From Candidatus Krumholzibacteriia bacterium (GTDB lineage Bacteria > Krumholzibacteriota > Krumholzibacteriia > WVZY01 > JAKEHA01), in NCBI GenBank assembly GCA_029865265.1, contig JAOUHG010000001.1, positions 93,213-157,212 of the forward strand: a stretch of 64,000 nt of DNA, written 5' to 3'. Made by a program: the position numbers and the translations under genes. This document shows positions 12,269 to 63,208 of the stretch, piece after piece. The notes beneath the pieces were generated by a model. That model was not told the origin of the DNA. It did not search any database and saw only the letters and a program-made list of their open reading frames with translations. Numbering within the stretch: position 1 is the first letter of the stretch; each line of letters begins with the position of its first letter.

Positions 12269-12272
12269 GAAC

Positions 12273-16071: not shown

Positions 16072-16083
16072 CGGGGGTGTTTC

Positions 16084-22048: not shown

Positions 22049-22573
22049 CTACGCGTGCCCGTCTCCGCGCAGCGCTGCGTTCTCCTGGCGGATGCGGGTT
22101 CGCAGCGCAAGCGCATTCAATATGGACACCAATAGCGCTGTTCGCCAGGCGCCGAAGATGAGCGGCGCGGACACCAGTTCCGCCACGATCGCCACGTAGT
22201 TGGGGTGATTCAGGAACCGGTAGGGACCGCTTGCGACCGGTGGTACGCCCGGCTCCACGATGATGCGAACGTTCCAGCGATCCCCCAGCGCCCGAATGGA
22301 GGCGTAGCGCAACGCCTGCGCGCCCAGCCATATCGCCAGCCACAGCGGCCACGACACGCCGGGCCGCTCACCCAGCACCAGCACCTCGCCCGCCATGCCG
22401 AGGATGAAGAGGACATGAACCCCCACCAGCCAGGGGAAATGACCGGCGCCGTACTCCCGCCCACCGCGGCCCATCACGCGACGTGCGTTTCGCGCCGCAA
22501 GAACGAGCTCCGAGAGTCGTTGCAGGATGACAAACGCCAGGAATGCAATGAACCAACGGGTTGCGGACTCCAC
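22049..22573 (-). CDS. isoprenylcysteine-carboxyl-methyltransferase (ICMT)-family membrane O-methyltransferase
   Basis: Polytopic 174-aa protein with the ICMT/phospholipid-methyltransferase C-terminal signature (RFLNHPNYVAIVAELVSAPLIFGAW). Its start abuts the stop of the type III PKS. Confidence 0.7.
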   Translation of the reverse strand: MESATRWFIAFLAFVILQRLSELVLAARNARRVMGRGGREYGAGHFPWLVGVHVLFILGMAGEVLVLGERPGVSWPLWLAIWLGAQALRYASIRALGDRWNVRIIVEPGVPPVASGPYRFLNHPNYVAIVAELVSAPLIFGAWRTALLVSILNALALRTRIRQENAALRGDGHA

Positions 22574-26951: not shown

Positions 26952-29639
26952 TCAGCGGCCCTTCAGCAGGGCCGGCCAATCGTGGACCAAATAGATCAGC
27001 GAATTGGCGTTGTCGTCGGCGGTGACGGCGGCAAAGTAGCGCTTGCCGTCGCCGGTGAGCGTGCCGATGCGGTTGCGGGAGATGCGCATCTGCGGCACCG
27101 GTGTTCCCGCCCTGAAACTCGGGGTGTAATCCACCGGCACCCGCATCATGGTGGCACCGTCGGCGGCTTCGTAGAGCAGTTCACGCCCGCCCTTGTTCCA
27201 GAACACCGCAAACAGATCGCCATAGGATCCGGCGCCGTTGACGGACACGCGATACTTCTCCTGCAGGTCGGGGAACGACACCACGTACGTTTCGAACGAG
27301 CCCGACTCGTCTGAGTGATAGGCGAGATAGCGCCCGTCCGGGGAAACGGCGCCGCCCTTTTCATTGAATCGGGTCACGATGAAGGGCTTCGCCTCTCCCT
27401 TTCCATCCGTGGGAACCGTCCAGATGTCATAGCCGGTGTCGCGCGAGAGCGTGTGATAGACGATGGTTCCGCCGTCCGGTGTCCACGCGTTTGGGCGCAC
27501 AAACAGTTGATCGCGGCGGGTAAGCAGCGGGGTTTCCTCGCCCGCGCCACTGGCGTTCTTCACGTAGATGCCCTCGTTGCCGCCGCGGTTGCTGGCAAAG
27601 GCGATGCGCCGCCCATCCGGCGACCAGATCATGCTGCCGTTGATCGATGGATCGAAGGTCACCCGCGAGGCTGCGCCCCGGCTCAGCTCGATGATGAAGA
27701 TATCGCTGGTGTTCTCGGCGTTGGTGGCGCTCAGCCGCGACGCCGCCAGCCGGGTTCCGTCGGGGGAAAGAGCGACGTCGAGGTACATGCCGTCATCGAC
27801 GCGAACCTTGCCGCGCTGCACACCCGAGGCGTCCCACTCCGGGATGAATGACGACTGAACGGCGGACGTGGTGCGCACGATGACACCGTTGTCGGACACC
27901 GAGAGATTGGGGGAACCGCTCCATCCTCCGCTGGAACCGGGCGGCTCGCCCAGCGGGATCAGCGGGCCCGCCGCCTCCAGCTTCTTCGTGTCGAAACGCT
28001 GCGCGACCAGCGATTGCTCGCGGCCGTAAAGCACGAAACCCGGTTCCGCGTAAACCGCGGCCCCGCGCGCGTTGACCGCGAGCTTGCGGTCGAACGAATC
28101 AATGGACCCGACGAACGTGTCGAAGGTGCCGTTCTGCGCCGGCAACGACACGTACAGGAAGTGCTTTCCGTCGGGGAGGAAGCACGGAAAGCGGTGCGCC
28201 TGTTCGCCGCGGGTCGAATCCAGCTGGGTGACCTGCACCGGCACGCCGCCGTCGGCGGAAACCTTGAACAAAGGTCCGCCCGACGAGGGTGCAAACACGA
28301 TCACGCCATCGCGGTTCCAGGTCCCGCCCCGCCCGTCGGGGGCCGCGCATACCACCTGCGGGGTGCCGCCACCGGCCGGCATGCGCATCAGCTTGCCCGC
28401 GGCCGAGAAGAACGCGATGTTCCTGCTGTCGGCCGACCAGAAGGGCAGGCCGGAGTCTTCGGTGCCGGGGAGCGGCCGCGCCTGGCGGTCGTCGAGGTGA
28501 AGCGTCCACAGCCGATAGGTCCCGAGCGTGTCCGTCGCCAGGAACACAATGGAGCGTCCGTCCGGGGAGATCTTGATCTGGGCTTGCGACGCCGCGATGC
28601 TGTTGGCCCGGTCCAGCGGCTCCACCGCGAAGCGGCTGACCTCCAGGGTCTGCTTCGGGCGCATGAGTGTCGAGGTGGCGAGAGCGATTGCCGCGGCGCC
28701 GAACACCGCGGCTGTGATCCACGCGGTGCGCTCGCGGCTCCGGCGCCGTGCGCGCACCGGGGCGGCCACGCCTGCCTGCGACCCGGCGTCGCGGATCCAG
28801 GTGAGTTCCAGCATGAGGTCGCGCGCGGTCTGCCAGCGATCGTCCGGCTTCTTCTCCAGGCAGCGGTGCACCACGCGCTCGAACGCGGGCGGCGTAAGCG
28901 GCTGCAGTTCGGCGATGGCGCGCGGCTGGTCTTTCAGAATGGACGCGATGAGCGAGGCCTGGGTGTCTCCCTGAAACGCGCGACGCCCGGTGGCCATCTC
29001 GTAGAGTACGGCGCCGAACGAGAAGATGTCGGTACGCGCGTCGGCGGGGCGGCCTTCCAGCTGCTCGGGCGCCATATACTGGAAGGTGCCGATGATGGCG
29101 CCCTCAGCGGTGAGCGATCGCGCCATGGTGGGCGACTGGGTCAGGTCGCCGCCGGCGCCGAGTTCGGCGCTGCGCGCGAGGCCGAAGTCCAGCAGCTTGG
29201 CGCCCGACGGGGTGAGCATGATGTTGCCGGGCTTGAGATCGCGATGGATCAGGTTCTGGCGGTGCGCCCGATCCAGCGCGTCAGCAATCTGAATGCCGAT
29301 GACAAGGAGTTCGCGCATGGGGATAGCACCGCGCGCGATGCGGTCCTGCAGCGACTCGCCCTCGATGTACTCGAGCACCAGAAAGTCCACGCCGTCCTCG
29401 TGACCCACGTCGTGCAGCGTGCAGATGTTGGGATGGTTGAGGCTGGAGACTGCCCGCGCCTCGCGCTCGAAGCGCTGGCGCACCTCGGGCGATGCGGTCA
29501 GGTGGCCGGCGAGCACCTTGATGGCGACGTCGCGGTCCAGGCGCGTGTCGCGCGCGCGGTACACCTCACCCATGCCGCCCGCGCCGATGGGGGAGACGAT
29601 TTCGTACGGGCCGAGCCGTGTGCCGGGGTTGATCTGCAT
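26952..29639 (-). CDS. Ser/Thr protein kinase fused to a TolB-like beta-propeller (WD40-like) domain
   Basis: Hanks kinase motifs (GAGGMGEVY, AIK, HRDLKPGNIML, DFGLA, APE), a TM segment and ~550 aa of TolB-type repeats. Confidence 0.8.
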   Translation of the reverse strand: MQINPGTRLGPYEIVSPIGAGGMGEVYRARDTRLDRDVAIKVLAGHLTASPEVRQRFEREARAVSSLNHPNICTLHDVGHEDGVDFLVLEYIEGESLQDRIARGAIPMRELLVIGIQIADALDRAHRQNLIHRDLKPGNIMLTPSGAKLLDFGLARSAELGAGGDLTQSPTMARSLTAEGAIIGTFQYMAPEQLEGRPADARTDIFSFGAVLYEMATGRRAFQGDTQASLIASILKDQPRAIAELQPLTPPAFERVVHRCLEKKPDDRWQTARDLMLELTWIRDAGSQAGVAAPVRARRRSRERTAWITAAVFGAAAIALATSTLMRPKQTLEVSRFAVEPLDRANSIAASQAQIKISPDGRSIVFLATDTLGTYRLWTLHLDDRQARPLPGTEDSGLPFWSADSRNIAFFSAAGKLMRMPAGGGTPQVVCAAPDGRGGTWNRDGVIVFAPSSGGPLFKVSADGGVPVQVTQLDSTRGEQAHRFPCFLPDGKHFLYVSLPAQNGTFDTFVGSIDSFDRKLAVNARGAAVYAEPGFVLYGREQSLVAQRFDTKKLEAAGPLIPLGEPPGSSGGWSGSPNLSVSDNGVIVRTTSAVQSSFIPEWDASGVQRGKVRVDDGMYLDVALSPDGTRLAASRLSATNAENTSDIFIIELSRGAASRVTFDPSINGSMIWSPDGRRIAFASNRGGNEGIYVKNASGAGEETPLLTRRDQLFVRPNAWTPDGGTIVYHTLSRDTGYDIWTVPTDGKGEAKPFIVTRFNEKGGAVSPDGRYLAYHSDESGSFETYVVSFPDLQEKYRVSVNGAGSYGDLFAVFWNKGGRELLYEAADGATMMRVPVDYTPSFRAGTPVPQMRISRNRIGTLTGDGKRYFAAVTADDNANSLIYLVHDWPALLKGR

Positions 29640-39506: not shown

Positions 39507-41006
39507 TCAGCGGGCGGGAGTGGCGGGCGACGCGGACGAACCGAGCGTGGCGAGCTGCGCCAGTTCCGCGGCGACGTCTGCCATGCGCGCGGGGCGCTGG
39601 TCCGGCGACTTTGCCAGCATGCGCGACACGAGTGCATCGAGCGCGGGAGGAACCGGCTCGCGCGTTGCGCGTGAGGCAAGCGGTGGCGCGGGCCTGCGGA
39701 CGTGCTGGGCGAGCACGCTCGCCAGTTCTCCGGTGAAGGGCACCGAGCCCGCGATCATCTGGTGCAGGATGATGCCGAGCGCGTAGACGTCGGTGCGGTG
39801 ATCGACGGCGTTGCCGTCGGCCTGCTCGGGGCTCATATAGTGGGGCGATCCCATCACCGCGCCCTCCAGGGTGTGCGCGGTTCCGGTCGCAATCTTGGCC
39901 AGGCCGAAGTCGGTCACCTTGGGCGTGCGCGCGTCGGCCATGAGGACGTTGGCGGGTTTGAGATCGCGGTGAACGACGCCGCGCTCGTGCGCGTATTCAA
40001 GCGCGTCCGCAATGCGCGCTGCCAGCGCGACCGCGTCCGCGACGGCCATCGGCCCGCTCTGCTTGAGCAGCGCGGCGAGATCCCCCCGCTCCACCAGTTC
40101 CATCGCCATCCACAGGTGGCCGTTATGCTCGACCAGGTCGAATACCTGGACGATGTGCGGGTGCGAAAGCATCGCGAGCACGCGCGCCTCGCGCTGGAAG
40201 CGCGCGATTTCCTCCTCCGTTCCGGAAAGGGGAAGCTGTTTGAGTGCCACGTCGCGCTGTAGAACCTCATCGGTCGCGCGGAATACGACGCCGTAACCGC
40301 CGCGACCAATACGCTGGGAGACCGAGTAGCGCCCACCGACGAGCGGGGTCGTGCCGTCCTGTTGGGACAGCGCCGCGCCTCCGATCCGCGGTACAGATGT
40401 TTCCTCGCGGATGGTGGCGACGTTGTGGGCGTCGTCGTTGTGATCCGCCAGTTGCTGGTCGATCTCGAGAACGCGCTGGTTGAGGGCAGACTCGCGCGCA
40501 GGATCACAGGTCAGGTCCAGCGCTGAACGGTACATCTCCGCGCTTCTCAGCGGCGAGTGCAGTCGCACGGTGTCGGCGTCACGTTCGCGCCGCGAGCTCT
40601 CCGCCTCCGCCCGCTCGACCGCCACCGGGAGGTGCGCGAGCAGGAGCAGGAGTACCAGTCCGCCGCCGGCACAAGTGGCCAGCGCGTCCAGCGTGAACGC
40701 AGCGCGCTTGCGCTGCACGTCCGAACGACTGGATCCGCTGAACACGCCGGTGATGTGTTGACCCAGGCTCTTGCGGGGACCCACGGCATCCAGCACTGCA
40801 TCACGACCGTGGGGATGAACGAAGGCCAGAAACAGAATGACCGCTGCGAGTGTCGCTTGTGCCACCCACGCGGTCATGAGCCAGCGCACCAGGATGCGTG
40901 GTTTTCGCTTCATCGCCGGTAGAAACGCGGATGAACTCCGCGCGCGCCCGACCACGCCGGAGGTGGTGGTGATCACCGGCCGGACAAACCGCCACTGCGC
41001 GATCAT
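39507..41006 (-). CDS. membrane-anchored Ser/Thr protein kinase
   Basis: N-terminal TM region, a coiled/linker segment and a C-terminal Hanks kinase (GRGGYGVVF, ALK, HRDLKPANVLM, DFGLAK, SPEQ). Confidence 0.8.
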   Translation of the reverse strand: MIAQWRFVRPVITTTSGVVGRARSSSAFLPAMKRKPRILVRWLMTAWVAQATLAAVILFLAFVHPHGRDAVLDAVGPRKSLGQHITGVFSGSSRSDVQRKRAAFTLDALATCAGGGLVLLLLLAHLPVAVERAEAESSRRERDADTVRLHSPLRSAEMYRSALDLTCDPARESALNQRVLEIDQQLADHNDDAHNVATIREETSVPRIGGAALSQQDGTTPLVGGRYSVSQRIGRGGYGVVFRATDEVLQRDVALKQLPLSGTEEEIARFQREARVLAMLSHPHIVQVFDLVEHNGHLWMAMELVERGDLAALLKQSGPMAVADAVALAARIADALEYAHERGVVHRDLKPANVLMADARTPKVTDFGLAKIATGTAHTLEGAVMGSPHYMSPEQADGNAVDHRTDVYALGIILHQMIAGSVPFTGELASVLAQHVRRPAPPLASRATREPVPPALDALVSRMLAKSPDQRPARMADVAAELAQLATLGSSASPATPAR

Positions 41007-41701
41007 GGATCGACGGAAACGCCCGTGTGTTGCGTGAAGGAGAATGAGAAATCACCGATCACAATGGCGCAGCCGTCGGACAGCTCGCGGTCCTTCACCG
41101 CCTCGCCGTCCACCTTGACGCGCGTCCTTCCATCCAGATGGCGGATCGAGTAATGCCCGCCAAGAAAGCGAATCTCGGCGTGATAGGGCGCGATGCCACG
41201 GCCGCGAATGATGATGTCGGCCGCTTCGTCACTGCCGATGATCATGAGCCCGCGATCCAGTGAGTAGGTCCGCTCGCGGTCCGGTGAGGTTTCGGTGAGC
41301 GTGGCCGGGTTGGTGATGGGGCCGGGCTGGTTATCGGCGCCGGCGAGCAGGGTGGACTCGAACAGCACTGGGTCCGCGGCGACGCTCCCGTCCGGCGCGG
41401 CGACGCGGCAGATGATGTTGTGCTTGCCGATGGTGATGATGTCCCCATGCGACAGTCTCGCATGATCGACGTGCACGCCGTTGACGCGCGTGCCGTTGGC
41501 ACTCTCGTGGTCGCGGATGATGAGGCCGTCCGGTGACATTTCAATGGTGGCGTGCAGTCGCGACACGGACAGGTTGTCGATCACGATGTGGTTGTCGGCC
41601 GTGCGACCGATCTTGATGGCGGTTTCTCCCACCGGCCACCGCCCGAGTTCGCTGCCCTTGAACTCCAGCGAAAGGATGTAGCCGTGCGATGGCTGGCTCA
41701 T
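41003..41701 (-). CDS. protein with two FHA (forkhead-associated) domains
   Basis: Two FHA cores (IKIGRTADNHIVIDNLSVSRLHATI...GTRVNG and MIIGSDEAADIIIRGRGIAPYHAEI...RTRVKVDG). Overlaps the kinase gene start by 4 nt. Confidence 0.75.
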   Translation of the reverse strand: MSQPSHGYILSLEFKGSELGRWPVGETAIKIGRTADNHIVIDNLSVSRLHATIEMSPDGLIIRDHESANGTRVNGVHVDHARLSHGDIITIGKHNIICRVAAPDGSVAADPVLFESTLLAGADNQPGPITNPATLTETSPDRERTYSLDRGLMIIGSDEAADIIIRGRGIAPYHAEIRFLGGHYSIRHLDGRTRVKVDGEAVKDRELSDGCAIVIGDFSFSFTQHTGVSVDP

Positions 41702-41876
41702 GCGTCGTCTCCCGCGGGGATGCGCGTAACGTGTTGTAAGACAATTGAATAAAAGTGCCGGCTGCCAGGGGGAGAGGTGCAAAAAGCATGCCGGGGACAC
41801 CCGCCCCGGGGGCCACGCCGCGCGGCCCTATGCCACCGTCAGCTATTGATCGGCTGGCGCGCCGGGATCGCGGCGC

Positions 41877-42767
41877 CTACATGGCTCGAAACGCAATCGC
41901 GAGCACCTCTTTGGCGAAGTCCTCGAAGCGCGTCGGGGTGGTGTTGTGCGCGTTGCGGCCCTGGGTGCTCACCACGAGACCCTCGTTGATGCCGCGCGAC
42001 ATCTCGACGTACAGCGACGCTATGCTTTCCGAGAGCCCCATTGCCTTCATGCCCTCCAGCGCCGCGTCGTAGGGGAACTGCATGTACTGCAAATCGGGGT
42101 GCTCGATGGCCTCGCCGATGATGTGTGTGACCCGTTCCATGGTGAGGTCTGCGGCGCCCAGCGCTTCGCGCACCGTCGGTCCCTTGAAGTCGAGCTTCAT
42201 GAGCGCCGCTGCCGCCGCCTCACCCACGTCGTGGGATGCGATCATCGGGATGGGTACATCGCCCCGAATTGCCGAACCGTTGATGCCCTGCTGCTTGATC
42301 AGACCCAGCGTGGGAAAGTGGTTCTCGAAAAAGTACCCCGCGCGCAGGAACGCGGCATTCAACCCGTTGATGCTCTTGAAGCGTTCCTCCTGCTCGTGCA
42401 ACCCCGCAATCGGGCCCGTCCCCTGCTTGTGCTGCGCACCGACGCTGCTCAAAAAGACGATGTTCTTGACACCGCTCTTGCGCACGGCTTCGGTGATGGC
42501 TTCCCCCACCCGGGTCTGGTGCGCGCGGTAGTCGGGCGCGGCCAGGTCGGGCGGAATCATTGTGTATACTGCTTCGCTGCCCTGAAATGCGCGGGCAAGG
42601 AAGGCGGTGTCGGTGGCATCCCCCGCCATGGCTTCGGCACCACGGTTGACGAGGGGCTGCAGGCGTTCGCCGGAACGCCCGAGGACCCGGACCTTCTTGC
42701 CCGCGTCCAGCAGCGAGCTGGCCGCGACGCGGCCCGTGTTTCCAGTGGCTCCCATGATTGTAATCAT
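41877..42767 (-). CDS. NmrA-like NAD(P)-binding oxidoreductase (atypical SDR)
   Basis: N-terminal Rossmann motif (IMGATGNTGRVAA) and the NmrA/isoflavone-reductase-like fold; ~296 aa. Confidence 0.75.
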   Translation of the reverse strand: MITIMGATGNTGRVAASSLLDAGKKVRVLGRSGERLQPLVNRGAEAMAGDATDTAFLARAFQGSEAVYTMIPPDLAAPDYRAHQTRVGEAITEAVRKSGVKNIVFLSSVGAQHKQGTGPIAGLHEQEERFKSINGLNAAFLRAGYFFENHFPTLGLIKQQGINGSAIRGDVPIPMIASHDVGEAAAAALMKLDFKGPTVREALGAADLTMERVTHIIGEAIEHPDLQYMQFPYDAALEGMKAMGLSESIASLYVEMSRGINEGLVVSTQGRNAHNTTPTRFEDFAKEVLAIAFRAM

Positions 42768-42925
42768 CCGAGGTCTCCTTCTGCTGCGTATTGATCAGGG
42801 CAAACATACCGCACACGGCGGCCGTTTTCAAATCTCAAGGCCGTTGACCCCGGCGCGCGGCGGACGTACCTTGTGTGCTGTCCTTTCCGTCCCGCCCGTA
42901 ACGACGCCCTAAAGGGAGGCCGAAC

Positions 42926-43270
42926 GTGTCCGACGATCGCGAAAACTACTACCACGAGGCCGACCTGGCCCGCTTTGGTGAGATGGGCGAGAACGTGCCC
43001 GAGCTGGCGAAGAAGTTCTTCGACTGGTACGGCGCGGTATTCGCCGATGGCGCGCTTTCGGCGCGCGAGAAGTCACTCATCGCCCTGGCGGTGGCGCACG
43101 CCGTCCAGTGTCCGTATTGCATCGACGCCTACAGCAAGGACTCGCTGGAGAAGGGCGCCGACCTGGACCAGATGACCGAGGCGGTCCACGTTGCGGCCGC
43201 CATTCGTGGGGGCGCGTCGCTGGTGCACGGTGTGCAGATGAGGAATCACGCCCTCAAGATCGGCATGTAA
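42926..43270 (+). CDS. AhpD-like (carboxymuconolactone decarboxylase family) peroxidase-like protein of the arsenosugar-biosynthesis-associated type
   Basis: 114 aa with the CxxC AhpD core (AHAVQCPYCIDAYS); lies 4 nt upstream of an ArsS-type radical SAM gene. Confidence 0.65.
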   Translation: MSDDRENYYHEADLARFGEMGENVPELAKKFFDWYGAVFADGALSAREKSLIALAVAHAVQCPYCIDAYSKDSLEKGADLDQMTEAVHVAAAIRGGASLVHGVQMRNHALKIGM

Positions 43271-43274
43271 TCCG

Positions 43275-44318
43275 TTGAAGACTTCTCCCTCATTGAAGTC
43301 CCGCGGGGCCGCACTCGCGTCCAGCGATGCGCAACTGCAGGCGCTCGCGGAACTCCCGCTCACGCGTGAATTTCCGGAAGCGCTGGCATCGGCGGGGCTG
43401 CACCCGCTCAAACCCACCGGCATCGAAATAATGCAGATCAATGTCGGGAAGCTGTGCAATCAGACCTGCCGCCACTGCCACGTGGACGCCGGCCCCGACC
43501 GGCGCGAGAGCATGACGCGCGAAACCATGCAGCTGTGCCTGGATGCGCTGTCGCGAACCTCCATTCCCGTCGTTGACATCACCGGTGGGGCGCCCGAACT
43601 CAACCCGGACTTTCGCTGGCTGGTGGAGCGTTGTCGCGAACTGGGCCGTCATGTGATGGACCGCTGCAATCTCACCATCCTCGAGGTTCCCTCGCAGCGC
43701 GACACGCCCGAGTTTCTCGCCCGGCACAACGTGGAGGTGGTGTGCTCGCTGCCGCACTACCGCGCGGCCGGCACCGACCGCCAGCGCGGCGACGGCGTGT
43801 TCGAAAAGTCGATTGCGGCGCTCAGGCGCCTCAACCAGCTGGGATACGGGGACGGGGTGTCGGGCCTGCGCCTGGTGCTGGTTACCAATCCGGTGGGCGC
43901 GTTCATCCCGGGGGCGCAGGCGTCGTTGGAACGCGAATGGAAGCGGGAACTGCTGCGCCTGCACGGCGTGCGCTTCGATGCGCTGTACTGCATCACCAAC
44001 ATGCCCATCAGCCGCTACCTGGAGTGGCTGATTACCTCTGAGAATCTCGAGGGGTACATGGAGCGGCTGGTCAACGCGTTCAACCCGGTTGCCGCGCGCG
44101 GCGTGATGTGCCGCAACACCATCTCGGTCGGTTGGGATGGCGTCGTCTACGACTGCGACTTCAACCAGATGCTGGATCTTCCGGTGGCGCCGGTGGGTGT
44201 GCGCCACATCCGCGACTTCGATGTCGACGCGCTCAACGCGCGTTCCATCGTTACCGACCGCCACTGCTTCGGCTGCACCGCCGGCGCCGGGTCGAGTTGC
44301 GGTGGCGTAACCTCGTGA
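43275..44318 (+). CDS. arsS: radical SAM protein of the arsenosugar biosynthesis ArsS type
   Basis: CxxxCxxC cluster (CNQTCRHC) near the N-terminus and a C-terminal Cys-rich tail (HCFGCTAGAGSSCGG). The size and the pairing with the AhpD-like gene are characteristic of ArsS. Confidence 0.65.
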   Translation: MKTSPSLKSRGAALASSDAQLQALAELPLTREFPEALASAGLHPLKPTGIEIMQINVGKLCNQTCRHCHVDAGPDRRESMTRETMQLCLDALSRTSIPVVDITGGAPELNPDFRWLVERCRELGRHVMDRCNLTILEVPSQRDTPEFLARHNVEVVCSLPHYRAAGTDRQRGDGVFEKSIAALRRLNQLGYGDGVSGLRLVLVTNPVGAFIPGAQASLEREWKRELLRLHGVRFDALYCITNMPISRYLEWLITSENLEGYMERLVNAFNPVAARGVMCRNTISVGWDGVVYDCDFNQMLDLPVAPVGVRHIRDFDVDALNARSIVTDRHCFGCTAGAGSSCGGVTS

Positions 44319-44331
44319 GCTTCCGCGGACT

Positions 44332-45279
44332 CTAGCCCTTCCCTGGGGCGGCTTTGGTGGTCGCGGCGGTGCCCGTCTGAATCACGATGGCGGCACGCTC
44401 CGCGCCACCCGAATCCACCAGCGTCGTGGTGGTGACCCGCGAGCCTTCGCCGCGCAGGAGCGGCCGCAGGCTGTTGGCGATTTCATCCGCAATCGACTTG
44501 GCCAGCGCAAAGGTGGGCGCGGTGACTTCCACGCGCACCGCGCGGTTGGCATCCCCGCTCTCGTTGATGCGCGAGGCGGCTTCCTGGACGTAGGCCGCTG
44601 GCACCGACGCGGCGTCGGTCGCGATGGCAAACGACATGCGCACGTCGGAGCCCTTCTCGTCCAGGTAGGGCGGAATCTGGAACGACTCACCCACGAAGCT
44701 GCGCTTGTTGCCGGCCTTGTCCATGGCGTTCAGCACGTACGAGTAGGTAAGGTCCGTCCGTGCCGGAGTGCCATCCAGGGTGGCTCCGTCCCACGCGATT
44801 TCGGTGGGCGGCTTTCCCTTGCCTTCGAATGCCGCCACGCGGCCGCCGCGCGAATCCGCCACTTCCAGGGACCAGCGCTCGACGCCGCTCACCTGGGGAC
44901 GGAAACTCGCCACCGGTCCGGTGCGGAAGCCGTCGAACCACGGCTGCGGCGTGTACCACGCGCGGTCGAACGCGGAGCGCGCCAGCAACGGTCCGGTGAA
45001 GTCGAACGACTCGGGTGCGAGCACGATCATCAGGCTTTCCCAGTCGAGGCCCGGTGCCGTTGACGGATCCAGCGTGAGTTCCAGGGGAGGGCGTACGAAC
45101 TGGACGCGCACGCGGTCCTCGCCCTCCACGGTGATGCTTTCCAGCGTCTTGCCCTTGCTGCCGCCCGGAATCGTCATCGAGGTGTCGGTCGGCGCGGCGC
45201 TCTGCTCCGCGGCGTTCGCGGTGGCGGCGAGCGTGGTAAGGGCCAGGGCGCACGCGGTGATGCCGAGTCTGCTGATCAT
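44332..45279 (-). CDS. hypothetical secreted protein (last gene of the TonB-complex operon)
   Basis: Signal peptide (ITACALALTTLAATANA); no recognisable family. Confidence 0.45.
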   Translation of the reverse strand: MISRLGITACALALTTLAATANAAEQSAAPTDTSMTIPGGSKGKTLESITVEGEDRVRVQFVRPPLELTLDPSTAPGLDWESLMIVLAPESFDFTGPLLARSAFDRAWYTPQPWFDGFRTGPVASFRPQVSGVERWSLEVADSRGGRVAAFEGKGKPPTEIAWDGATLDGTPARTDLTYSYVLNAMDKAGNKRSFVGESFQIPPYLDEKGSDVRMSFAIATDAASVPAAYVQEAASRINESGDANRAVRVEVTAPTFALAKSIADEIANSLRPLLRGEGSRVTTTTLVDSGGAERAAIVIQTGTAATTKAAPGKG

Positions 45280-45296
45280 GAGAAACCTGCCTCCGG

Positions 45297-46247
45297 TTAC
45301 TGTGCGTCACTCAACCGGTAGTTGAACGTGATTCGTCCCCACTGCTCTCCCGAGCCGGGCAACGCCTGAAACTTCCATTGGCGCAGTGCCGCCACGGCGC
45401 CGGTATCAAAGTCTGAGAAGCCGCTGGTGCGCTCCACCACGATGTTCTCCTTGATGCGTCCATCGGGGAGAACATAGAAGTACAGCGTCACGGATCCTTC
45501 CACACCGTCGCGCTTGGCCCATTCGGGGTAGCGCGGAACCTCGTACGAGACCAGGGGCCGGCTGGCCACCGGTCCCACCAGTTGCGCCCCGGCCAGGTTG
45601 CGCGACGCGGTGCTGGTGGTAGACGCGGACGGTCCGGGCCTGGCGACATCCGGCTTCGCGACCGGGACCGCCGCCACCGGGGTTCCCGCGCGAGCGTCGG
45701 TTCGTTGCAGCGCCACCGGTGGTCCGGACGCCGGCTTGGCGTCGCGCGACAGCGCGGACGGATTGCTCGCGGGCCGCGCCTCCGCGGTTGTCACGCCGGC
45801 GAGTGTCGGGGTGCCCACCTTGGGCGGCGGCACCAGCGACGCGATGCGCGTGCGGTCGGTGCTGCCGTTCTGTTCCATTGCGTCGATCTTGTCGGAGAGA
45901 ATGTCCGCGACGGCGCGCGTCTGCGGCCGCGGCGCCACTTCCGCGCGCTGCAGCGGACGCTCGAAGTGTTCGGGCGTCTCGGCGGGGTTCGCCGCCTTCT
46001 GTTTGACCTCTTCCACGGGCGCGCTCTTTGTCTCCTCGCGCGCCACCGGGGGAGCAGCCTGTTCCGCGGCCAGCGTGGCCGCGTCGATCCAGGTGATTTC
46101 GGTCAGCCCCGCCGACTCCGATGCCGCCTTGTGCGAGAAGATCAGCAGCAGCAGGATGGCGGCGTGGACGGCCGTGCTGATGGCCATCGATCGCCGTGTC
46201 GAGCGTTCGATGGCATTGAACTCGAGGGTGAGAAATTTCTCGTTCAT
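45297..46247 (-). CDS. TonB-family energy transducer (C-terminal TonB domain)
   Basis: N-terminal TM anchor (AVHAAILLLLIF), a Pro/Ala-rich spacer and a C-terminal TonB fold (YPEWAKRDGVEGSVTLYFYVLPDGRI...AVAALRQWKFQAL). Confidence 0.7.
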   Translation of the reverse strand: MNEKFLTLEFNAIERSTRRSMAISTAVHAAILLLLIFSHKAASESAGLTEITWIDAATLAAEQAAPPVAREETKSAPVEEVKQKAANPAETPEHFERPLQRAEVAPRPQTRAVADILSDKIDAMEQNGSTDRTRIASLVPPPKVGTPTLAGVTTAEARPASNPSALSRDAKPASGPPVALQRTDARAGTPVAAVPVAKPDVARPGPSASTTSTASRNLAGAQLVGPVASRPLVSYEVPRYPEWAKRDGVEGSVTLYFYVLPDGRIKENIVVERTSGFSDFDTGAVAALRQWKFQALPGSGEQWGRITFNYRLSDAQ

Positions 46248-46660
46248 CGCTGGCTGCCTCGCTGGGTGGTCGCGATGGCGATGCGTTTTGCACCGGCGGA
46301 CTTGGCTTCGGAGATCAATGCCTGCACGGTGGCGTAGGGAACCCCCTCGTCTGCGCGAACCACGAGCAGATTGTCCTCTTTGTTCCTCAACTTTTTGTCC
46401 AGGAACGAGGCCACCTGTCCGTAGCCCACCTTGGTGTCGTCGATGGCGATCTCACCCGTTCGGCCGATGGTCAGCGTGACGCGCTGGGAGCTGGCCATGC
46501 TCCGCGTCTCGGCGGGCGGAAGCCTGATCTCCATGTCGGACAGTGCAATCATCGGCGCCGTGACCATGAGGATGATGACCAGCACCAGTGCCACGTCGAT
46601 GATCGGTGTCACGTTGATCTTGGCAACCGTGGATGTATGCTCGATGAAGGGTCGGTTCAT
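46244..46660 (-). CDS. ExbD/TolR-family biopolymer transport protein (copy 2)
   Basis: INVTPIIDVALVLVIILMV signature TM; its stop overlaps the TonB start. Confidence 0.75.
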   Translation of the reverse strand: MNRPFIEHTSTVAKINVTPIIDVALVLVIILMVTAPMIALSDMEIRLPPAETRSMASSQRVTLTIGRTGEIAIDDTKVGYGQVASFLDKKLRNKEDNLLVVRADEGVPYATVQALISEAKSAGAKRIAIATTQRGSQR

Positions 46661-46673
46661 GTGTTGCCTCGGT

Positions 46674-47087
46674 CTACTTTTCGACGACGGCGATCTCACC
46701 CGCGCCGCATTGCTTCGCCTGGTCGAGAACATTGACGAACGCCCCGTGGCTGACCCCGCTTCGGCAGCTGATAACGACACCGCGCTCCTTGGCGGTGTCG
46801 ATGAGGGGCCGCAGCGTCTCGCTCAGGTCGGCGCGCATGAGCGCGGTGCGGTTGACCAGCACGGTCGAGTCCGAGAGGAGGACGATCTCGACCCGCGGGT
46901 CACGCTCCTGCTTTTTGGCGCTCTTGGCGGCCTGGGCCGCGCTGCGCACGTCGATGCTCGACTCGAACGCCAGCGGCGTTGTGAGCAGCAGCATCACCAC
47001 CAGCACCAGCGAGACGTCGATCAACGGCGTCACGTTGACTTCGTGGTTGGACCCGTCGGGTCCGTCTTGTCTGCGGAAGAAGCGCAA
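46674..47087 (-). CDS. ExbD/TolR-family biopolymer transport protein (copy 1)
   Basis: VNVTPLIDVSLVLVVMLLL signature TM. Confidence 0.75.
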   Translation of the reverse strand: MRFFRRQDGPDGSNHEVNVTPLIDVSLVLVVMLLLTTPLAFESSIDVRSAAQAAKSAKKQERDPRVEIVLLSDSTVLVNRTALMRADLSETLRPLIDTAKERGVVISCRSGVSHGAFVNVLDQAKQCGAGEIAVVEK

Positions 47088-47102
47088 GCTTGTTCCTCCT
47101 GG

Positions 47103-47813
47103 TCAACCCACGCTGACCGGCTGCGGTGCGGGCATGCTCTGGGTGGCCGATTCGCGCACACCGTCGGTCGGACGCGGACTCGACGGTCCGGAACCACTGC
47201 GCCGGGCCAGCCACGCGCGGATGGTGCGGGCGTGGTTCTCCGACATGGTGAGCATGACGGTGGAGCGCCGGATGAAATGGTTGTACAGGATGAGCGCGGG
47301 CACGGCGACGACGAGTCCCACCGCCGTCGTGACGAGCGCCTCGGCGATACCCGCGGCCACAACCGTCGGGGCCGCCGACCCCACGCGCGCCATGTCGTGG
47401 AAGGCACGCATGATGCCCCACACGGTTCCGAGCAGTCCCACCAGCGGGGCGGCACCGGCCATGGTTCCCAGCACGTTGAGGTTGCGCTCCAGCAGCAGCT
47501 TCTGCCTGCTCAGCTCCACGTAGATCTTCTCGTCGAGATCCGCGACTTCCTCGCTCTGCGCGCCGACGACGATCTCGAGCACCGGGCCCACCGGGTGCGT
47601 GCACTTGCCACAGCTCCACAGGGCTTCCTTGACCTCGCCCTTCTTGAGCCGCTGCGAAACCTCGTGCGCCATGGTGTCGGGATTGCCGCGGCGGCGCCAG
47701 AAGTAGATGGCCCGCTCGACCGCCACGCCAAGCGTGACGATGCTGAACAGGATCAGGATGATCATCGACGGACTCTCGGCCGTCAGCTTCAACCAGTCGA
47801 ACTCGCTGAACAT
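47103..47813 (-). CDS. MotA/TolQ/ExbB-family proton channel
   Basis: Three TM helices and the conserved C-terminal region (APLVGLLGTVWGIMRAFHDM...GIAEALVTTAVGLVVAVPA). The ATG is preceded by AGGAGG. Confidence 0.8.
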   Translation of the reverse strand: MFSEFDWLKLTAESPSMIILILFSIVTLGVAVERAIYFWRRRGNPDTMAHEVSQRLKKGEVKEALWSCGKCTHPVGPVLEIVVGAQSEEVADLDEKIYVELSRQKLLLERNLNVLGTMAGAAPLVGLLGTVWGIMRAFHDMARVGSAAPTVVAAGIAEALVTTAVGLVVAVPALILYNHFIRRSTVMLTMSENHARTIRAWLARRSGSGPSSPRPTDGVRESATQSMPAPQPVSVG

Positions 47814-47835
47814 CGGGATGCCTCCTCTTTGGCCG

Positions 47836-50800
47836 TTACCGGCGGGACTCGAGCTCGGTCGCACGTTCCTTGGCCGCGACGACGAGCTCCGGATCCGTCG
47901 CGTTCTTGATGAGATCGCGATAGGCGGTGAGCGCCTTCCCGAACTCCTGGTTTCTCTCGTGCACTGCGGCACTGCGCGCCAGGGCCGAGAGACGGTATGG
48001 ATTGGACTTGTCGCCGCACTTCGCGGCAGCCGCGTAGGAAGAGAGCGCGGCCTTCTCGTCGCCTGACTGTTCCTCGCAGTAACCGGCCCGGAACTGCACC
48101 TCGACGCGCAGATCGGTTTCGAGACTCGCCGCCAGGGCCGCGTTGTACTCGCGCGCTGCCTCGGCGTAACGGCCCGCGTCCTCGTTGATGGCACCGAGCT
48201 GGAATGCGACTTGGCCGGCACGACGGTCGCGCGGATAGTCCGCCCGGTACTGCTCGAGCAGGGCCTGTGCGGCATCTACGTCGCCGAGCATGCGCTGGCA
48301 CAGGGCCAGGTTGTAGCGGGCGGCGGATCTGAGTTCAGCCGGGACGCTGTCGGAGAGTACGGCGGTGAAGTCCACCGCCGCGCGCATGTAGTCGCCCTCT
48401 GCGAAACGGCTGGCGCCCAGTTGCAACTGCACGGTCGGACGCAGCTCGCTCGCCGGGAAGAACGTGACGAACTGTTCCCACGCACCGCGCGCCTCGGCTT
48501 CGCGACCGGAACGGCTGTACGAGTCGCCCATCAGGTAGAGTGAGCGGTCGCCGGCCGAGTAGGAGGGGAACTGGCTGACGACACGGCGGAACGCCTCCGC
48601 GGCGCCCTCGAAGTCATCCGCCTGGTAGCGCCGCAGTGCGATCTCATACTGGGCATCCGCGGCGAAGCTGCTGGAGGGGAAGCGCTCCACCAGTTCGGCC
48701 AGCACTTCCTCGCCGTTCTCTTTCTGGCCCAGCTGATACAGGGCCAGCTCGATGCCGCGTTTCGCATCCTCAGCCACCGCGTGGTTGGGGAAGCGCTCGA
48801 TGACCATGGAGTAGGCCTCGATGGACTCCGGATAGTGGCCGGCGTTGTAGTCGCACTGCGCGATGCGCAGCGTTCCCACCGCCGACGAGCGGCTGTCCGC
48901 AAAATTGGTGGTGAGGCTCAGGTAACAGGCCTTCGCCTCTTCGTAGTGGCCCGCGGTGAAATAGACGTCACCCGCCCGCACCAGCGACTTCTCCGCGATG
49001 GGGGCGGTGGGGTCCATCCGCGCGACTTCCTCCCAGCGGTCCACGGCGTCGCCGTCCTGTCCCAGGCGCAGGTAGCACATGCCGGCCTGGTAGAGGGCCT
49101 GCGCACGGTCGGGGTGCGACGGGAAGCTGGCGAGGAACGATTCATAGGCCTTGGCGGCCTCTTTGTAGTGCTTCTCGTTGAAGAGAATGTGCGCCTTGTT
49201 GAGATAGGCGAAGCTCATGTCGCTCGACGCGCCGCTGGACGCGTAGCGGGCCAGCATGCGGTCCTGCGTCTGCATGGCCAGGTCGAGCTCGCCTTCCTGC
49301 GAGTAGGACCACGCCAGCAGCCGGTACGCGGGTACCGCGACGTCGGGGGTGGTGAACTCGGCGAGCAACTGCGTCAGCATCTGCTGCGCCTCGTCCTGCC
49401 GGCCCTGTGCGGCCAGAGCGTCAGCGTCGATCAGGAGTGCATTCGCGCGCCACAGCGACTTGCTGGGCGGCATGCGCTGCAGCAGCAGGTGGGGAATGCC
49501 CGAGAGCAGCCCCAGGTTTCCGGCGCGGTGGTAGGAGAGTTCCAGCAGGCACAGTGACGCCTCCACCAGTTCCTGCTTCTCCGGCGTTTCGAATTCGATG
49601 GTGCCCTCGCCGCGCACGGGCGCATAACGATCGAGCACGACGCGGAAGTAGGGCGCGGCCGCCGCGTAGCGGTTCTGCGACAGCAGTCCCGCGCCGGCCA
49701 GGTAGGCCGCGGCGGGTGCCTCGCGCGACGTCGGGTATCCGGAAACGACCGCCTGGTACGCACCCGTTGCCTCGGCGGGCCGGCCCAGGGCGTCGAGACT
49801 GCGCGCCACGCGGTACTGCGCCAGCGAGGCCAGGCCATGCTGGAAGTAGCGCGTCAGCACCTTGTTGAACTCGACGATGGCGGCCTCGTACTGCTCCGCC
49901 GAAAACAGCACCTCGCCCAGAACAATCTGTGCGCGTGCGGCGATCGTCGTGCCGGCGTACTCGGAGGCGACGGCACGCAACTGCGCCGTGCCTTCGTCGA
50001 ATTCGCCGGCCAGAACCGTGGATGCTGCTCCGCGCAGGCGCGCCTCGGCGCGGACCTCATCGGAGTTCACCGCGGCAACGACTTTGGCGAACTCCTCCGC
50101 CGCGCTCGCGTAGGCGCCGCTCTTGAAGAAGACATTGGCCTTGGCCAGTCTGGCGACGTCGCGCAGGCGCGGATCGTCGTAGCGGTCCGCGACTTCCTGG
50201 TAACGGGCGGCCGCCTTGAGCGGTTTGCCGGTGGCCTCGTCGGTGAGCGCGCGCAGGTACACGCACGCCGGATCCAGCGACGTCCCGCTCGGCTCCACCT
50301 TCACGTCGGAATAGCGACCCTCCAGGAACGCCGTGGTTCCCTCGGCCAGCGTCAAGCGGGCGTCATTGGCGAGCCACGGGAACTCGCGTCGGGTCTGCGC
50401 GAGTATAGAGACGGCCAGACCGACGCTGTCGCGGCGAATGGCGTTCCACGCGCGCGCCAGCATTGCCTCGCTGCGCGCGGGAGAGTTCGGGTTGTCTCGC
50501 AGCCACTTCACCCACTCCTTCTCCGCGTCCTCGTCGCGTCCCGTCGCTTCCAGAGTCTGGATGGCGGCGAGGCTCGCGTCGTCCACGAGGGGCGTCCTCT
50601 TTGCGTCCTTGCCAGCCTCGCGGTACGTCTTGTTGGCCTGGTCGTACTGCCCGAGCGCAAACAGGATCTCGCCGGCCAGGAAACGCGCCGCGGCCTTCTG
50701 CTCCTTCGGCACATCACCATCCAGGAACAGGCTCATGCGGCGGTCGAGATCCACGATGGCGGCGGTTCTTTCCGGCGCCGGCAGGTGCTGCGCCGCGTCG

Positions 50801-50946
50801 AACGCCAGCCCGATGTCGGAAAGTGGCTCCACCGGTGCACCCGCGCGCGCAGCTGCAGACACGGCAATCGTGCCGAGCGCGAGCAGTGCCAGCGCGGCGC
50901 CCTGGCGGCGCATGCGTTCGGCCATGAGAGTCAACTGGTTGCGCAT
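47836..50946 (-). CDS. large (1036 aa) TPR-repeat protein with signal peptide
   Basis: N-terminal signal (ALALLALGTIAVSAAARA) followed by >20 TPR-like units. It sits 22 nt upstream of ExbB on the same strand. Confidence 0.7.
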   Translation of the reverse strand: MRNQLTLMAERMRRQGAALALLALGTIAVSAAARAGAPVEPLSDIGLAFDAAQHLPAPERTAAIVDLDRRMSLFLDGDVPKEQKAAARFLAGEILFALGQYDQANKTYREAGKDAKRTPLVDDASLAAIQTLEATGRDEDAEKEWVKWLRDNPNSPARSEAMLARAWNAIRRDSVGLAVSILAQTRREFPWLANDARLTLAEGTTAFLEGRYSDVKVEPSGTSLDPACVYLRALTDEATGKPLKAAARYQEVADRYDDPRLRDVARLAKANVFFKSGAYASAAEEFAKVVAAVNSDEVRAEARLRGAASTVLAGEFDEGTAQLRAVASEYAGTTIAARAQIVLGEVLFSAEQYEAAIVEFNKVLTRYFQHGLASLAQYRVARSLDALGRPAEATGAYQAVVSGYPTSREAPAAAYLAGAGLLSQNRYAAAAPYFRVVLDRYAPVRGEGTIEFETPEKQELVEASLCLLELSYHRAGNLGLLSGIPHLLLQRMPPSKSLWRANALLIDADALAAQGRQDEAQQMLTQLLAEFTTPDVAVPAYRLLAWSYSQEGELDLAMQTQDRMLARYASSGASSDMSFAYLNKAHILFNEKHYKEAAKAYESFLASFPSHPDRAQALYQAGMCYLRLGQDGDAVDRWEEVARMDPTAPIAEKSLVRAGDVYFTAGHYEEAKACYLSLTTNFADSRSSAVGTLRIAQCDYNAGHYPESIEAYSMVIERFPNHAVAEDAKRGIELALYQLGQKENGEEVLAELVERFPSSSFAADAQYEIALRRYQADDFEGAAEAFRRVVSQFPSYSAGDRSLYLMGDSYSRSGREAEARGAWEQFVTFFPASELRPTVQLQLGASRFAEGDYMRAAVDFTAVLSDSVPAELRSAARYNLALCQRMLGDVDAAQALLEQYRADYPRDRRAGQVAFQLGAINEDAGRYAEAAREYNAALAASLETDLRVEVQFRAGYCEEQSGDEKAALSSYAAAAKCGDKSNPYRLSALARSAAVHERNQEFGKALTAYRDLIKNATDPELVVAAKERATELESRR

Positions 50947-62596: not shown

Positions 62597-63208
62597 ATGC
62601 CTGAGCGTCCGCCCGATATCCGCAGCCAGTTTGACCGCGCGTTCTTCGAGCGCTTCTACCAGCGGTCGTCCACGGCGGTGATATCCGCGGACGACGTCTA
62701 CCGCCGTGCGCGCTTCGTGCTCGCCTACCTGGCGCACCTGCAACTGGAGGTTCACTCCGTGCTCGACGCGGGCTGCGGCACCGGGCTGTGGAAGAAGGCG
62801 CTGCGGCGGGTGGACCGCGACATCGCGTACACCGGCATCGATCCCAGCGAGTACCTGTGCCGCCGCTATGGCTGGACGCAGACGGCCATCGCCGACTTCG
62901 CGCCGCGGCGCACGTTCGACCTGGTGGTGTGCCAGGACGTGCTGCAGTACGTGGACGACACCGGCGTGCGCCGCAGCATCGCGGCCATGAAGCGCGCCTG
63001 CGCCGGCGCGCTCTACTTCGACGTGCCCACCACCGACGACATCGACGACGGCCTGCTGGACATGAAACTCACCGACCGCGCGATCCACGTGCGCGGCGCC
63101 GAGTGGTACCGCAGGCTGCTGCGCAAGAGCTTCGTCAACGCGGGCGGGGGCGTGTTCCTCAAGAAGAACGCCAGCGCGGTGATCCTGGCCCTGGAACGTC
63201 TGGGGTGA
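62597..63208 (+). CDS. class I SAM-dependent methyltransferase
   Basis: Motif I (VLDAGCGTGLW) and an acidic post-I loop (YTGIDPS); 203 aa. Confidence 0.7.
   Translation: MPERPPDIRSQFDRAFFERFYQRSSTAVISADDVYRRARFVLAYLAHLQLEVHSVLDAGCGTGLWKKALRRVDRDIAYTGIDPSEYLCRRYGWTQTAIADFAPRRTFDLVVCQDVLQYVDDTGVRRSIAAMKRACAGALYFDVPTTDDIDDGLLDMKLTDRAIHVRGAEWYRRLLRKSFVNAGGGVFLKKNASAVILALERLG

What the first reader, a model, noticed from the sequence alone, without database searches (positions are those of the whole stretch)
42926..44318. Arsenosugar-type gene pair: AhpD-like protein plus ArsS-type radical SAM enzyme, without an adjacent arsM
Seen in sequence:
- A 114-aa CPYC AhpD-fold protein lies 4 nt upstream of a 347-aa radical SAM protein.
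- The radical SAM protein has an N-terminal CNQTCRHC cluster and a C-terminal Cys-rich tail.

Established knowledge:
- This pairing is the hallmark of the arsenosugar biosynthesis ArsS module described in cyanobacteria.
- ArsS transfers a 5'-deoxyadenosyl group to dimethylarsenite made by ArsM.

Inference:
- This organism may make 5'-deoxy-5'-dimethylarsinoyl-adenosine or a related organo-arsenical or organo-chalcogen compound.
- The only methyltransferase candidate in the window (62597..63208) is 19 kb away, so the source of the substrate is unclear.
Basis: partly seen in the sequence, partly recalled or inferred. Interest (0 to 1): 0.55.

Follow-up and report, generated by a model that had tools for sequence, protein, structure and literature searches.

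The report
Annotated ArsS arsenic-adenosylating gene pair
This is an ordinary, already-annotated two-gene unit: a small thiol-redox protein plus the radical SAM enzyme ArsS, which attaches adenosine to dimethylarsenite. It sits in an uncultured Krumholzibacteria genome, and standing alone without an arsenic methyltransferase nearby is the commonest layout for this pair.

Summary
A 114-aa CPYC AhpD/CMD-fold gene (42926-43270) lies 4 nt upstream of a 347-aa radical SAM gene (43275-44318) with a CNQTCRHC motif and a Cys-rich DUF3641 C-terminus.

Both proteins exceed the curated NCBIfam cut-offs for the arsenosugar-associated peroxidase-like protein (TIGR04169, 184.6 vs 120 bits) and ArsS (TIGR04167, 428.9 vs 300 bits). 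The AhpD-like protein is identical to a GenBank entry, and ArsS matches one at 100% over a 341-aa call. Both entries carry exactly these names, from Candidatus Krumholzibacteria MAGs.

In 80 species genomes from at least 10 phyla, the AhpD-like gene sits directly upstream of arsS in 64. An ArsM-like gene lies within 10 kb in only 17. The bare pair seen here is the most frequent layout (38 of 80).

About 80 kb of the source contig holds no ArsM, ArsR or TIGR04282/TIGR04283 gene.

The enzyme most likely makes 5'-deoxy-5'-dimethylarsinoyl-adenosine. The source of its substrate and the fate of its product are not encoded locally. The partner protein's role is unknown family-wide. Verdict: already known, low interest.

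The parts
42912..42919 (+). Shine-Dalgarno sequence AAGGGAGG, 6 nt upstream of the GTG start of the AhpD-like gene
   Evidence: Read directly from the sequence.
42926..43270 (+). AhpD/CMD-fold 114-aa protein, family TIGR04169 'arsenosugar biosynthesis-associated peroxidase-like protein'
   Evidence: TIGR04169 scores 184.6 bits against a cut-off of 120, covering profile positions 1-109 of 109. Pfam CMD scores 64.2 bits. The identical protein is named this way in GenBank, e.g. MDH4036284.1.
43109..43120 (+). CPYC redox motif (C62-P-Y-C65) of the AhpD-like protein
   Evidence: Invariant in all 65 partner proteins aligned. E48, K49 and H88 are also invariant.
43275..44318 (+). ArsS, a 347-aa radical SAM enzyme (the alternative start TTG 43293 gives 341 aa)
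   Evidence: TIGR04167 scores 428.9 bits against a cut-off of 300, covering profile positions 2-302 of 303. Pfam finds Radical_SAM plus DUF3641. The 100%-identical protein P0002 is named ArsS in GenBank, MDH4036285.1. N-terminal conservation supports the 43275 start.
43455..43478 (+). CX3CX2C radical SAM [4Fe-4S]-binding motif (C61, C65, C68)
   Evidence: Invariant in 81 of 81 family members.
43905..44306 (+). DUF3641 C-terminal domain (residues 211-344) with invariant C279, C294, C331, C334 and C342
   Evidence: PF12345 scores 171.7 bits. All five Cys are invariant in 81 of 81 sequences.
44265..44300 (+). C-terminal CFGCTAGAGSSC motif. C342 lies at the end of GSSC, a GxxC that fits the GxxU motif listed for selenoprotein members of the family. 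Here it is a TGC Cys codon.
   Evidence: Sequence. The GxxU motif for TIGR04167 is listed in PMC13188914. Assigning C342 as the Sec position is my inference from that motif.

Best explanation
This is a two-gene operon encoding a true ArsS-family radical SAM enzyme and its conserved small CxxC AhpD/CMD-fold partner. ArsS binds a [4Fe-4S] cluster through C61, C65 and C68 and reductively cleaves SAM. The resulting 5'-deoxyadenosyl radical adds to the arsenic of dimethylarsenite, DMAs(III). The As-centred radical then returns the electron to the cluster, giving 5'-deoxy-5'-dimethylarsinoyl-adenosine (DDMAA), the first committed intermediate of arsenosugar biosynthesis. That chemistry was shown for ArsS elsewhere and is inferred here from orthology. 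The five invariant C-terminal cysteines probably hold an auxiliary Fe-S cluster and/or bind the arsenical as a thiolate (inference). The CPYC partner probably keeps those thiols or the arsenical reduced, or hands over DMAs(III) (inference; no function has been shown for it). The substrate must come from an unlinked arsM elsewhere in the genome or from methylarsenicals made by neighbouring organisms. No local gene converts DDMAA into arsenosugars.
For: Both genes exceed the curated family cut-offs over their full length. The radical SAM motif and all five C-terminal Cys are invariant across 81 homologues. ArsS is 59% identical over its full length to the ArsS of a cultured cyanobacterium. In an NJ tree it shares a major branch with a cyanobacterial arsM-ahpD-arsS locus. 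The AhpD-like gene is directly upstream in 64 of 80 species genomes across at least 10 phyla. In other lineages arsS is linked to arsR-arsM (Nitrospira), to arsM (cyanobacteria), and to the TIGR04282/TIGR04283 'arsenosugar glycosyltransferases'. These links tie the whole family to arsenic. The literature records that ArsS adenosylates DMAs(III) to DDMAA in a redox-neutral reaction, and that Synechocystis arsS is co-transcribed with arsM. The pair is retained as a unit in relatives at 95% and 80% identity even where the flanking genes differ. Another Krumholzibacteria MAG is reported to carry arsM, arsC, arsB and arsR.
Against: No ArsM-like, ArsR-like, TIGR04282 or TIGR04283 gene occurs in the 64-kb window, and no ArsM-like, ArsR-like or TIGR04282/TIGR04283 gene occurs in about 80 kb of the contig. 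Pfam and NCBIfam scans of the window's ORFs found no arsenic transporter or other ars gene either. No member of this particular clade has been assayed, as far as the papers I could read show. The sequence of the characterised Synechocystis enzyme itself was not available for comparison. The partner protein's function is unknown. The structure model is only moderately confident (pLDDT 70.5) and is poor around the Cys motifs.
Confidence: 0.78

Rival explanations
1. The chemistry is the same but the biological role differs. The stand-alone AhpD-ArsS pair is an oxygen-independent detoxification device for trivalent methylarsenicals made by other community members. It converts toxic DMAs(III) into harmless pentavalent DDMAA and is not the start of an arsenosugar pathway. 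The CxxC partner would reduce DMAs(V) or deliver thiol-bound DMAs(III).
For: The bare pair, with no arsM or glycosyltransferase-like gene within 10 kb, is the commonest layout: 38 of 80 loci, and 21 of the 43 loci with at least 5 kb on both sides. About 80 kb around this pair has no arsM and no downstream genes. The reaction needs no external reductant or O2.
Against: The evidence is purely contextual, because an arsM may simply lie elsewhere in the genome. An arsS mutant of Synechocystis is reported not to be arsenite-sensitive. No arsR-type regulation was found here.
Confidence: 0.15
2. The clade carrying bare pairs has a different substrate. It would be another soft nucleophile, such as a methylated antimony, selenium or sulfur species, adenosylated by the same radical mechanism.
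For: There is no linked arsenic gene locally. The family includes selenoprotein members and a redox partner of unknown role.
Against: Conservation is very high: 55-75% identity across phyla, with every Cys and many motifs invariant. Arsenic-linked and bare loci are interleaved in the tree, apart from a separate Nitrospira arsM-linked clade. No evidence for any non-arsenic substrate was found in the literature I could read.
Confidence: 0.05
3. The equivalog name is over-propagated, and the pair has an unrelated function that is still unknown.
For: Only one experimentally anchored system, Synechocystis ArsS, appears in the papers I could read. The partner model is only a 'hypothetical equivalog'.
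Against: The scores are far above the cut-offs. There is recurrent linkage to arsM and arsR in several phyla. Identity to cyanobacterial ArsS is 59%.
Confidence: 0.02

Closest known systems
ArsS (DDMAA synthase) of Synechocystis sp. PCC 6803 and other cyanobacteria; NCBIfam TIGR04167
   Same: The architecture is the same: a CX3CX2C radical SAM core plus DUF3641 with five conserved Cys. It matches the family HMM over its full length at 429 bits and is 59% identical to a cultured cyanobacterium's ArsS. A cyanobacterial locus (L073) also has the AhpD-like gene directly upstream.
   Different: In cyanobacteria arsS lies next to arsM and is co-transcribed with it. Here no arsM lies within about 80 kb. 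The host is an uncultured, non-photosynthetic Krumholzibacteria lineage.
TIGR04169 arsenosugar biosynthesis-associated peroxidase-like protein (small AhpD/CMD-fold CxxC protein)
   Same: It gives a full-length match at 184.6 bits, has the invariant CPYC, and occupies the family's typical position directly upstream of arsS.
   Different: Nothing differs from the family. It is not a classical AhpD, however: TIGR00777 scores 18.5 bits against a cut-off of 192. Its closest solved relatives are small CMD proteins of unknown or peroxidase-like function, 3bey and 5dik.
Bacteroidota-type arsenosugar cassette (AhpD-like, ArsS, TIGR04282 DUF2064 protein, TIGR04283 GT2, with or without ArsM)
   Same: It shares the first two genes in the same order and orientation.
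   Different: The window lacks the two glycosyltransferase-like genes and ArsM.
Nitrospira-type arsR-arsM-arsS operon
   Same: It has an orthologous ArsS at 61-64% identity.
   Different: The Nitrospira loci have ArsR and ArsM but no AhpD-like gene, often with a PHO4-family transporter. The window has the opposite combination.
SPASM/twitch-type radical SAM enzymes with solved structures (SkfB, BlsE, EpeE, DesII, PqqE, SuiB, anSME)
   Same: These are the best fold matches to the AlphaFold model (Foldseek E-values from 3e-8 down to about 1e-4, TM about 0.45-0.52). This suggests a partial TIM-barrel core followed by a Cys-bearing C-terminal extension.
   Different: Sequence identity is only 13-19%, and no PDB chain is detectable by sequence. 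The chemistries differ. No ArsS structure has been solved.

Membership tests
ArsS, TIGR04167 (arsenosugar biosynthesis radical SAM (seleno)protein) | Full-length match to the equivalog HMM above the curated cut-off | tested here: met
   428.9 bits against a cut-off of 300; residues 45-345 align to profile positions 2-302 of 303.
ArsS, TIGR04167 | CX3CX2C radical SAM cluster motif | tested here: met
   C61, C65 and C68 (CNQTCRHC) are invariant in 81 of 81 homologues.
ArsS, TIGR04167 | C-terminal DUF3641 Cys-rich domain, including the Cys/Sec position | tested here: met
   PF12345 scores 171.7 bits. C279, C294, C331, C334 and C342 are invariant. The presumed Sec position is Cys (TGC) here.
ArsS, TIGR04167 | Orthology with cyanobacterial ArsS rather than a separate paralogous clade | tested here: met
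   59% identity over the full length to Thermocoleostomius sinensis ArsS. In the NJ tree it shares a major branch with the arsM-linked cyanobacterial locus L073. The tree is crude and has no bootstrap support. The Synechocystis sequence itself was not available.
ArsS, TIGR04167 | Catalysis: DMAs(III) + SAM gives DDMAA | not testable with these tools
   This needs an enzyme assay. The activity is known for ArsS from the literature.
ArsS, TIGR04167 | Linkage to arsM (seen in the characterised cyanobacterial system; not universal in the family) | tested here: not met
   No ArsM-like ORF was found in six-frame HMM searches of the window and of the contig extensions, about 80 kb in all. Only 17 of 80 family loci have ArsM within 10 kb, so this is not a defining feature.
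TIGR04169 peroxidase-like partner | HMM score above the cut-off, a conserved CxxC, and a position directly upstream of arsS | tested here: met
   184.6 bits against 120. CPYC is invariant in 65 of 65. A 4-nt gap on the same strand, the arrangement found in 64 of 80 genomes.
Classical AhpD alkylhydroperoxidase (TIGR00777) | Match to the AhpD subfamily model above the cut-off | tested here: not met
   18.5 bits against a cut-off of 191.95. Only the generic AhpD core/CMD domain is matched.
Complete arsenosugar cassette (ArsM + ArsS + TIGR04282 + TIGR04283) | Presence of the methyltransferase and both glycosyltransferase-like genes near arsS | tested here: not met
   None was detected in the window or in about 80 kb of the contig. 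They may lie elsewhere in the genome, which could not be searched.
ArsM (for the methyltransferase at 62597-63208) | Match to the ArsM models NF008823, NF038099 or NF040538 | tested here: not met
   No ArsM model hit at E <= 1e-4. It scores -1.6 bits against an ArsM-like HMM built from arsS-linked genes.

The most novel reading that the evidence does not exclude
The stand-alone AhpD-like/ArsS pair is widespread in soil and sediment phyla without a linked arsM or glycosyltransferase. It could be an oxygen-independent resistance or scavenging module for trivalent methylarsenicals released by other microbes, rather than a biosynthetic entry step. The CxxC partner would act as a dimethylarsenate reductase or as a carrier of thiol-bound DMAs(III).
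Probability: 0.15. Interest if true: 0.55.

Novelty: already known. Interest (0 to 1): 0.15.

Why it matters
It adds little beyond existing annotation. GenBank already carries both proteins under these names (the AhpD-like protein identical, ArsS identical over the 341-aa call), and the family is recognised in many phyla. The useful residue is contextual. In a sample of 80 species genomes the commonest arrangement is the bare AhpD-like/ArsS pair without arsM or downstream genes. The conserved partner still has no demonstrated function. These two points raise modest open questions: where the methylated arsenic substrate comes from, and whether the product in such organisms is an arsenosugar at all. 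That bears on how widely non-phototrophic bacteria contribute to organoarsenic cycling.

Tried and rejected
1. I looked for arsM, arsR, TIGR04282 and TIGR04283 with HMMs built from arsS-linked genes. I searched the window in six frames and two 10-kb contig extensions, and found nothing. One look-up for the right-hand extension failed because my start codon differed from the called gene. A second look-up worked.

2. It is a generic class I methyltransferase, not ArsM.

3. Rfam over the whole window gave no riboswitch or other RNA family. The promoter/terminator scan around the pair gave nothing useful on the + strand.

4. I checked whether loci 'lacking' the AhpD-like gene hide a TGA (Sec) version split by my ORF caller. 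tblastn found only a contig-edge fragment in L007. The Nitrospira loci genuinely lack it.

5. I tried to read the primary papers (Xue 2019 ES&T; Cheng 2021 Angew). Neither is held. A search seeded with a cyanobacterial ArsS did not list the Synechocystis PCC 6803 protein by name, so I used another cultured cyanobacterium's ArsS instead.

6. A sequence search of the PDB with ArsS gave no hits. The fold search gave only generic SPASM/twitch radical SAM relatives.

7. I considered the divergent NmrA-like gene (41877-42767) as a possible third component. I rejected it because the 80%-identical relative L085 lacks it and no such cluster recurs across loci.

Full report
**Observation**

ORF 42926..43270 (+, GTG start, 114 aa) carries CPYC at residues 62-65. 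ORF 43275..44318 (+, TTG start, 347 aa) carries CNQTCRHC at residues 61-68 and ends in RHCFGCTAGAGSSCGG. The first gene is preceded by a strong Shine-Dalgarno sequence, AAGGGAGG, 6 nt upstream. The second gene starts 4 nt after the first gene's stop codon, which suggests translational coupling.

Public gene calls start the second gene 18 nt later, giving 341 aa. Residues before that start are conserved in homologues (L7 nearly invariant; R10 and L14 invariant).

**Family assignment**

- The small protein matches TIGR04169, 'arsenosugar biosynthesis-associated peroxidase-like protein', at 184.6 bits against a cut-off of 120, across the whole profile.
- The large protein matches TIGR04167, 'arsenosugar biosynthesis radical SAM (seleno)protein ArsS', at 428.9 bits against a cut-off of 300, over profile positions 2-302 of 303.
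- The next best radical SAM model reaches only 40 bits.
- Pfam sees CMD in the small protein, and Radical_SAM plus DUF3641 in the large one.
- The AhpD-like protein is identical to a GenBank entry, and ArsS matches one at 100% over the 341-aa call. Both are from Candidatus Krumholzibacteria MAGs, carry consecutive accessions (MDH4036284.1 and MDH4036285.1, plus three further pairs), and have exactly these names.
- The window corresponds to a 313-kb metagenomic contig.

So the finding matches existing public annotation.

**Family anatomy**

The best 80 were kept. They span Acidobacteriota, Myxococcota, Bacteroidota, Nitrospirota, Planctomycetota, Gemmatimonadota, Verrucomicrobiota, Chloroflexota, Ignavibacteriota, Pseudomonadota, Cyanobacteriota and candidate phyla, at 54-75% identity to the window protein.

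Across all 81 sequences, the three radical SAM cysteines and five C-terminal cysteines (C279, C294, C331, C334, C342) are invariant. A review lists TIGR04167 as a selenoprotein family with a GxxU motif. By inference that corresponds to GSSC342 here, which is encoded by TGC.

The window protein is 59% identical over its full length to the ArsS of the cultured cyanobacterium Thermocoleostomius sinensis. In a neighbour-joining tree it groups with Vicinamibacterales and Myxococcota sequences. It shares a major branch with a cyanobacterial homologue whose locus reads arsM-ahpD-arsS. That tree is crude and has no bootstrap support. Still, it gives no sign that proteins from bare pairs form a separate paralogue.

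**Gene context**

I clustered all ORFs within 10 kb of arsS in the 80 loci and annotated the recurrent clusters.

| Neighbour of arsS | Loci out of 80 | Note |
|---|---|---|
| AhpD-like gene directly upstream, same strand | 64 | One more (L007) is cut by a contig edge |
| ArsM-like methyltransferase within 10 kb | 17 | Ten are Nitrospira loci carrying arsM next to arsS (six with arsR upstream, several with a PHO4-family transporter), all lacking the AhpD-like gene |
| TIGR04282 (DUF2064) and/or TIGR04283 (GT2) 'arsenosugar biosynthesis glycosyltransferases' | 24 | Mostly Bacteroidota |
| Bare AhpD-like/ArsS pair with none of these | 38 | The commonest layout; 21 of the 43 loci with at least 5 kb on both sides |

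Annotated plasmid records show further variants:

- Pseudanabaena: arsM-TVP38-arsS.
- Hymenobacter: GT-epimerase-SDR-arsS.
- Burkholderia glumae: arsS alongside an MTA phosphorylase, TIGR04283, thioredoxin/CcdA and a second radical SAM gene.

The linkage to arsM and arsR in several phyla ties the family to arsenic. The lack of an adjacent arsM in the window is therefore typical, not anomalous.

**This locus**

The pair is flanked by a divergent NmrA-like NAD(P)-binding gene (41877-42767, -). On the other side is a convergent secreted protein of unknown family (44332-45279, -), which ends a TPR-ExbB-ExbD-ExbD-TonB operon.

Relatives at 95% and 80% ArsS identity keep the pair. The 80% relative has different neighbours. 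So only the two genes form the conserved unit.

Six-frame HMM searches found no ArsM-like, ArsR-like, TIGR04282 or TIGR04283 ORF in the 64-kb window. Two extensions bring the surveyed stretch to about 80 kb of the contig, and they also have none.

It hits no ArsM model and scores -1.6 bits against an ArsM HMM. It sits directly upstream of a YHS/HMBD P-type ATPase.

The rest of the window holds a heme-biosynthesis cluster and housekeeping genes, and no arsenic genes. Rfam finds nothing. The rest of the MAG could not be searched. A different Krumholzibacteria MAG is reported to carry arsM, arsC, arsB and arsR, so an unlinked arsM is plausible.

**Mechanism**

The literature available here establishes two things.

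- Synechocystis ArsS acts after ArsM and is co-transcribed with it (Xue et al. 2019, as cited).
- ArsS adenosylates DMAs(III) to 5'-deoxy-5'-dimethylarsinoyl-adenosine in a redox-neutral radical reaction. The As-centred radical re-reduces the cluster (Cheng et al. 2021, as summarised).

From my own recollection of the Cheng et al. abstract, homologues from other phyla were also found to be active. I could not verify this here.

By orthology I assign the same reaction to the window enzyme, with confidence about 0.78.

The AlphaFold model is moderate (pLDDT 70.5, pTM 0.75) and is weak around the Cys loops. Its best structural neighbours are SPASM/twitch-type radical SAM enzymes: SkfB, BlsE, EpeE, DesII, PqqE, SuiB and anSME, at TM about 0.5. 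This is compatible with an auxiliary-cluster or substrate-binding role for the Cys-rich C-terminus, but does not prove it.

The partner is a small CMD/AhpD-core protein, closest to hexameric proteins such as 3bey and 5dik. It is not a classical AhpD: TIGR00777 scores 18.5 bits against a cut-off of 192. Its CPYC, E48, K49 and H88 are invariant. A thiol-redox or arsenical-handling role is inference only. ArsM/AhpD-domain fusion selenoproteins exist (NF041537), which weakly supports a functional link between AhpD-type domains and methylarsenic chemistry.

**Alternatives**

- The same chemistry could serve detoxification or scavenging of exogenous methylarsenicals rather than biosynthesis. This is favoured by the frequency of bare pairs, but rests on context alone (about 0.15).
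- The clade could have a different substrate. The extreme conservation and the interleaving of arsenic-linked and bare loci in the tree count against this (about 0.05).
- The annotation could be over-propagated (about 0.02).

**Verdict**

The feature is already known and already annotated. What remains open applies to the whole family and is not specific to this window: the partner's function, the source of the substrate, and the fate of the product in genomes with bare pairs. Interest is low.

Noticed in passing
window 9795-20131 (+): A near-complete heme biosynthesis cluster: URO-D (hemE), HemN-like radical SAM, a protoporphyrinogen-oxidase-like amine oxidase, ferrochelatase, glutamyl-tRNA reductase, a fused porphobilinogen deaminase/uroporphyrinogen-III synthase (567 aa), ALA dehydratase and a class-III aminotransferase (hemL-like).
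   Followed up: partly
window 22049-23662 (-): A type III polyketide synthase (chalcone/stilbene synthase family) is followed immediately by an ICMT-family membrane methyltransferase. This resembles an alkylresorcinol-type pair.
   Followed up: no
window 62597-63208 (+) and onward; L087 12734-15662: The 203-aa generic class I methyltransferase lies 8 nt upstream of a 769-aa P-type ATPase with YHS and HMBD heavy-metal-binding domains. This suggests a metal-related operon unrelated to ArsM.
   Followed up: partly
L014, L024, L040, L041, L045, L047, L049, L050, L066, L079 (Nitrospira/Nitrospiraceae): Nitrospira loci carry arsM directly next to arsS, six of them with arsR upstream and several with a PHO4-family transporter. 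All lack the AhpD-like gene. tblastn found no split (Sec) version. This is the opposite combination to the window.
   Followed up: partly
L090 (Burkholderia glumae plasmid NZ_CP100267.1): Here arsS (48% identity) lies in a larger plasmid-borne cluster. The cluster includes an S-methyl-5'-thioadenosine phosphorylase (a plausible DDMAA-cleaving step), TIGR04283, thioredoxin/CcdA, a second radical SAM gene, DUF547 and an ECF sigma/anti-sigma pair. It occurs on 49 Burkholderia plasmids.
   Followed up: no
window 44332-50946 (-): An operon encoding a 1036-aa TPR protein, ExbB, two ExbD and TonB ends with a 315-aa signal-peptide protein. That protein has no Pfam or NCBIfam match and is convergent with arsS, 13 nt from its stop.
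   Followed up: no
window 43275 vs 43293: There is a start-codon discrepancy for arsS. Public calls use TTG 43293 (341 aa), whereas homologue conservation supports TTG 43275 (347 aa).
   Followed up: yes
window 39507-41800 (-): A double-FHA-domain protein is followed by a Ser/Thr protein kinase with overlapping stop and start codons. A second kinase with PD40 repeats lies at 26952-29639.
   Followed up: no
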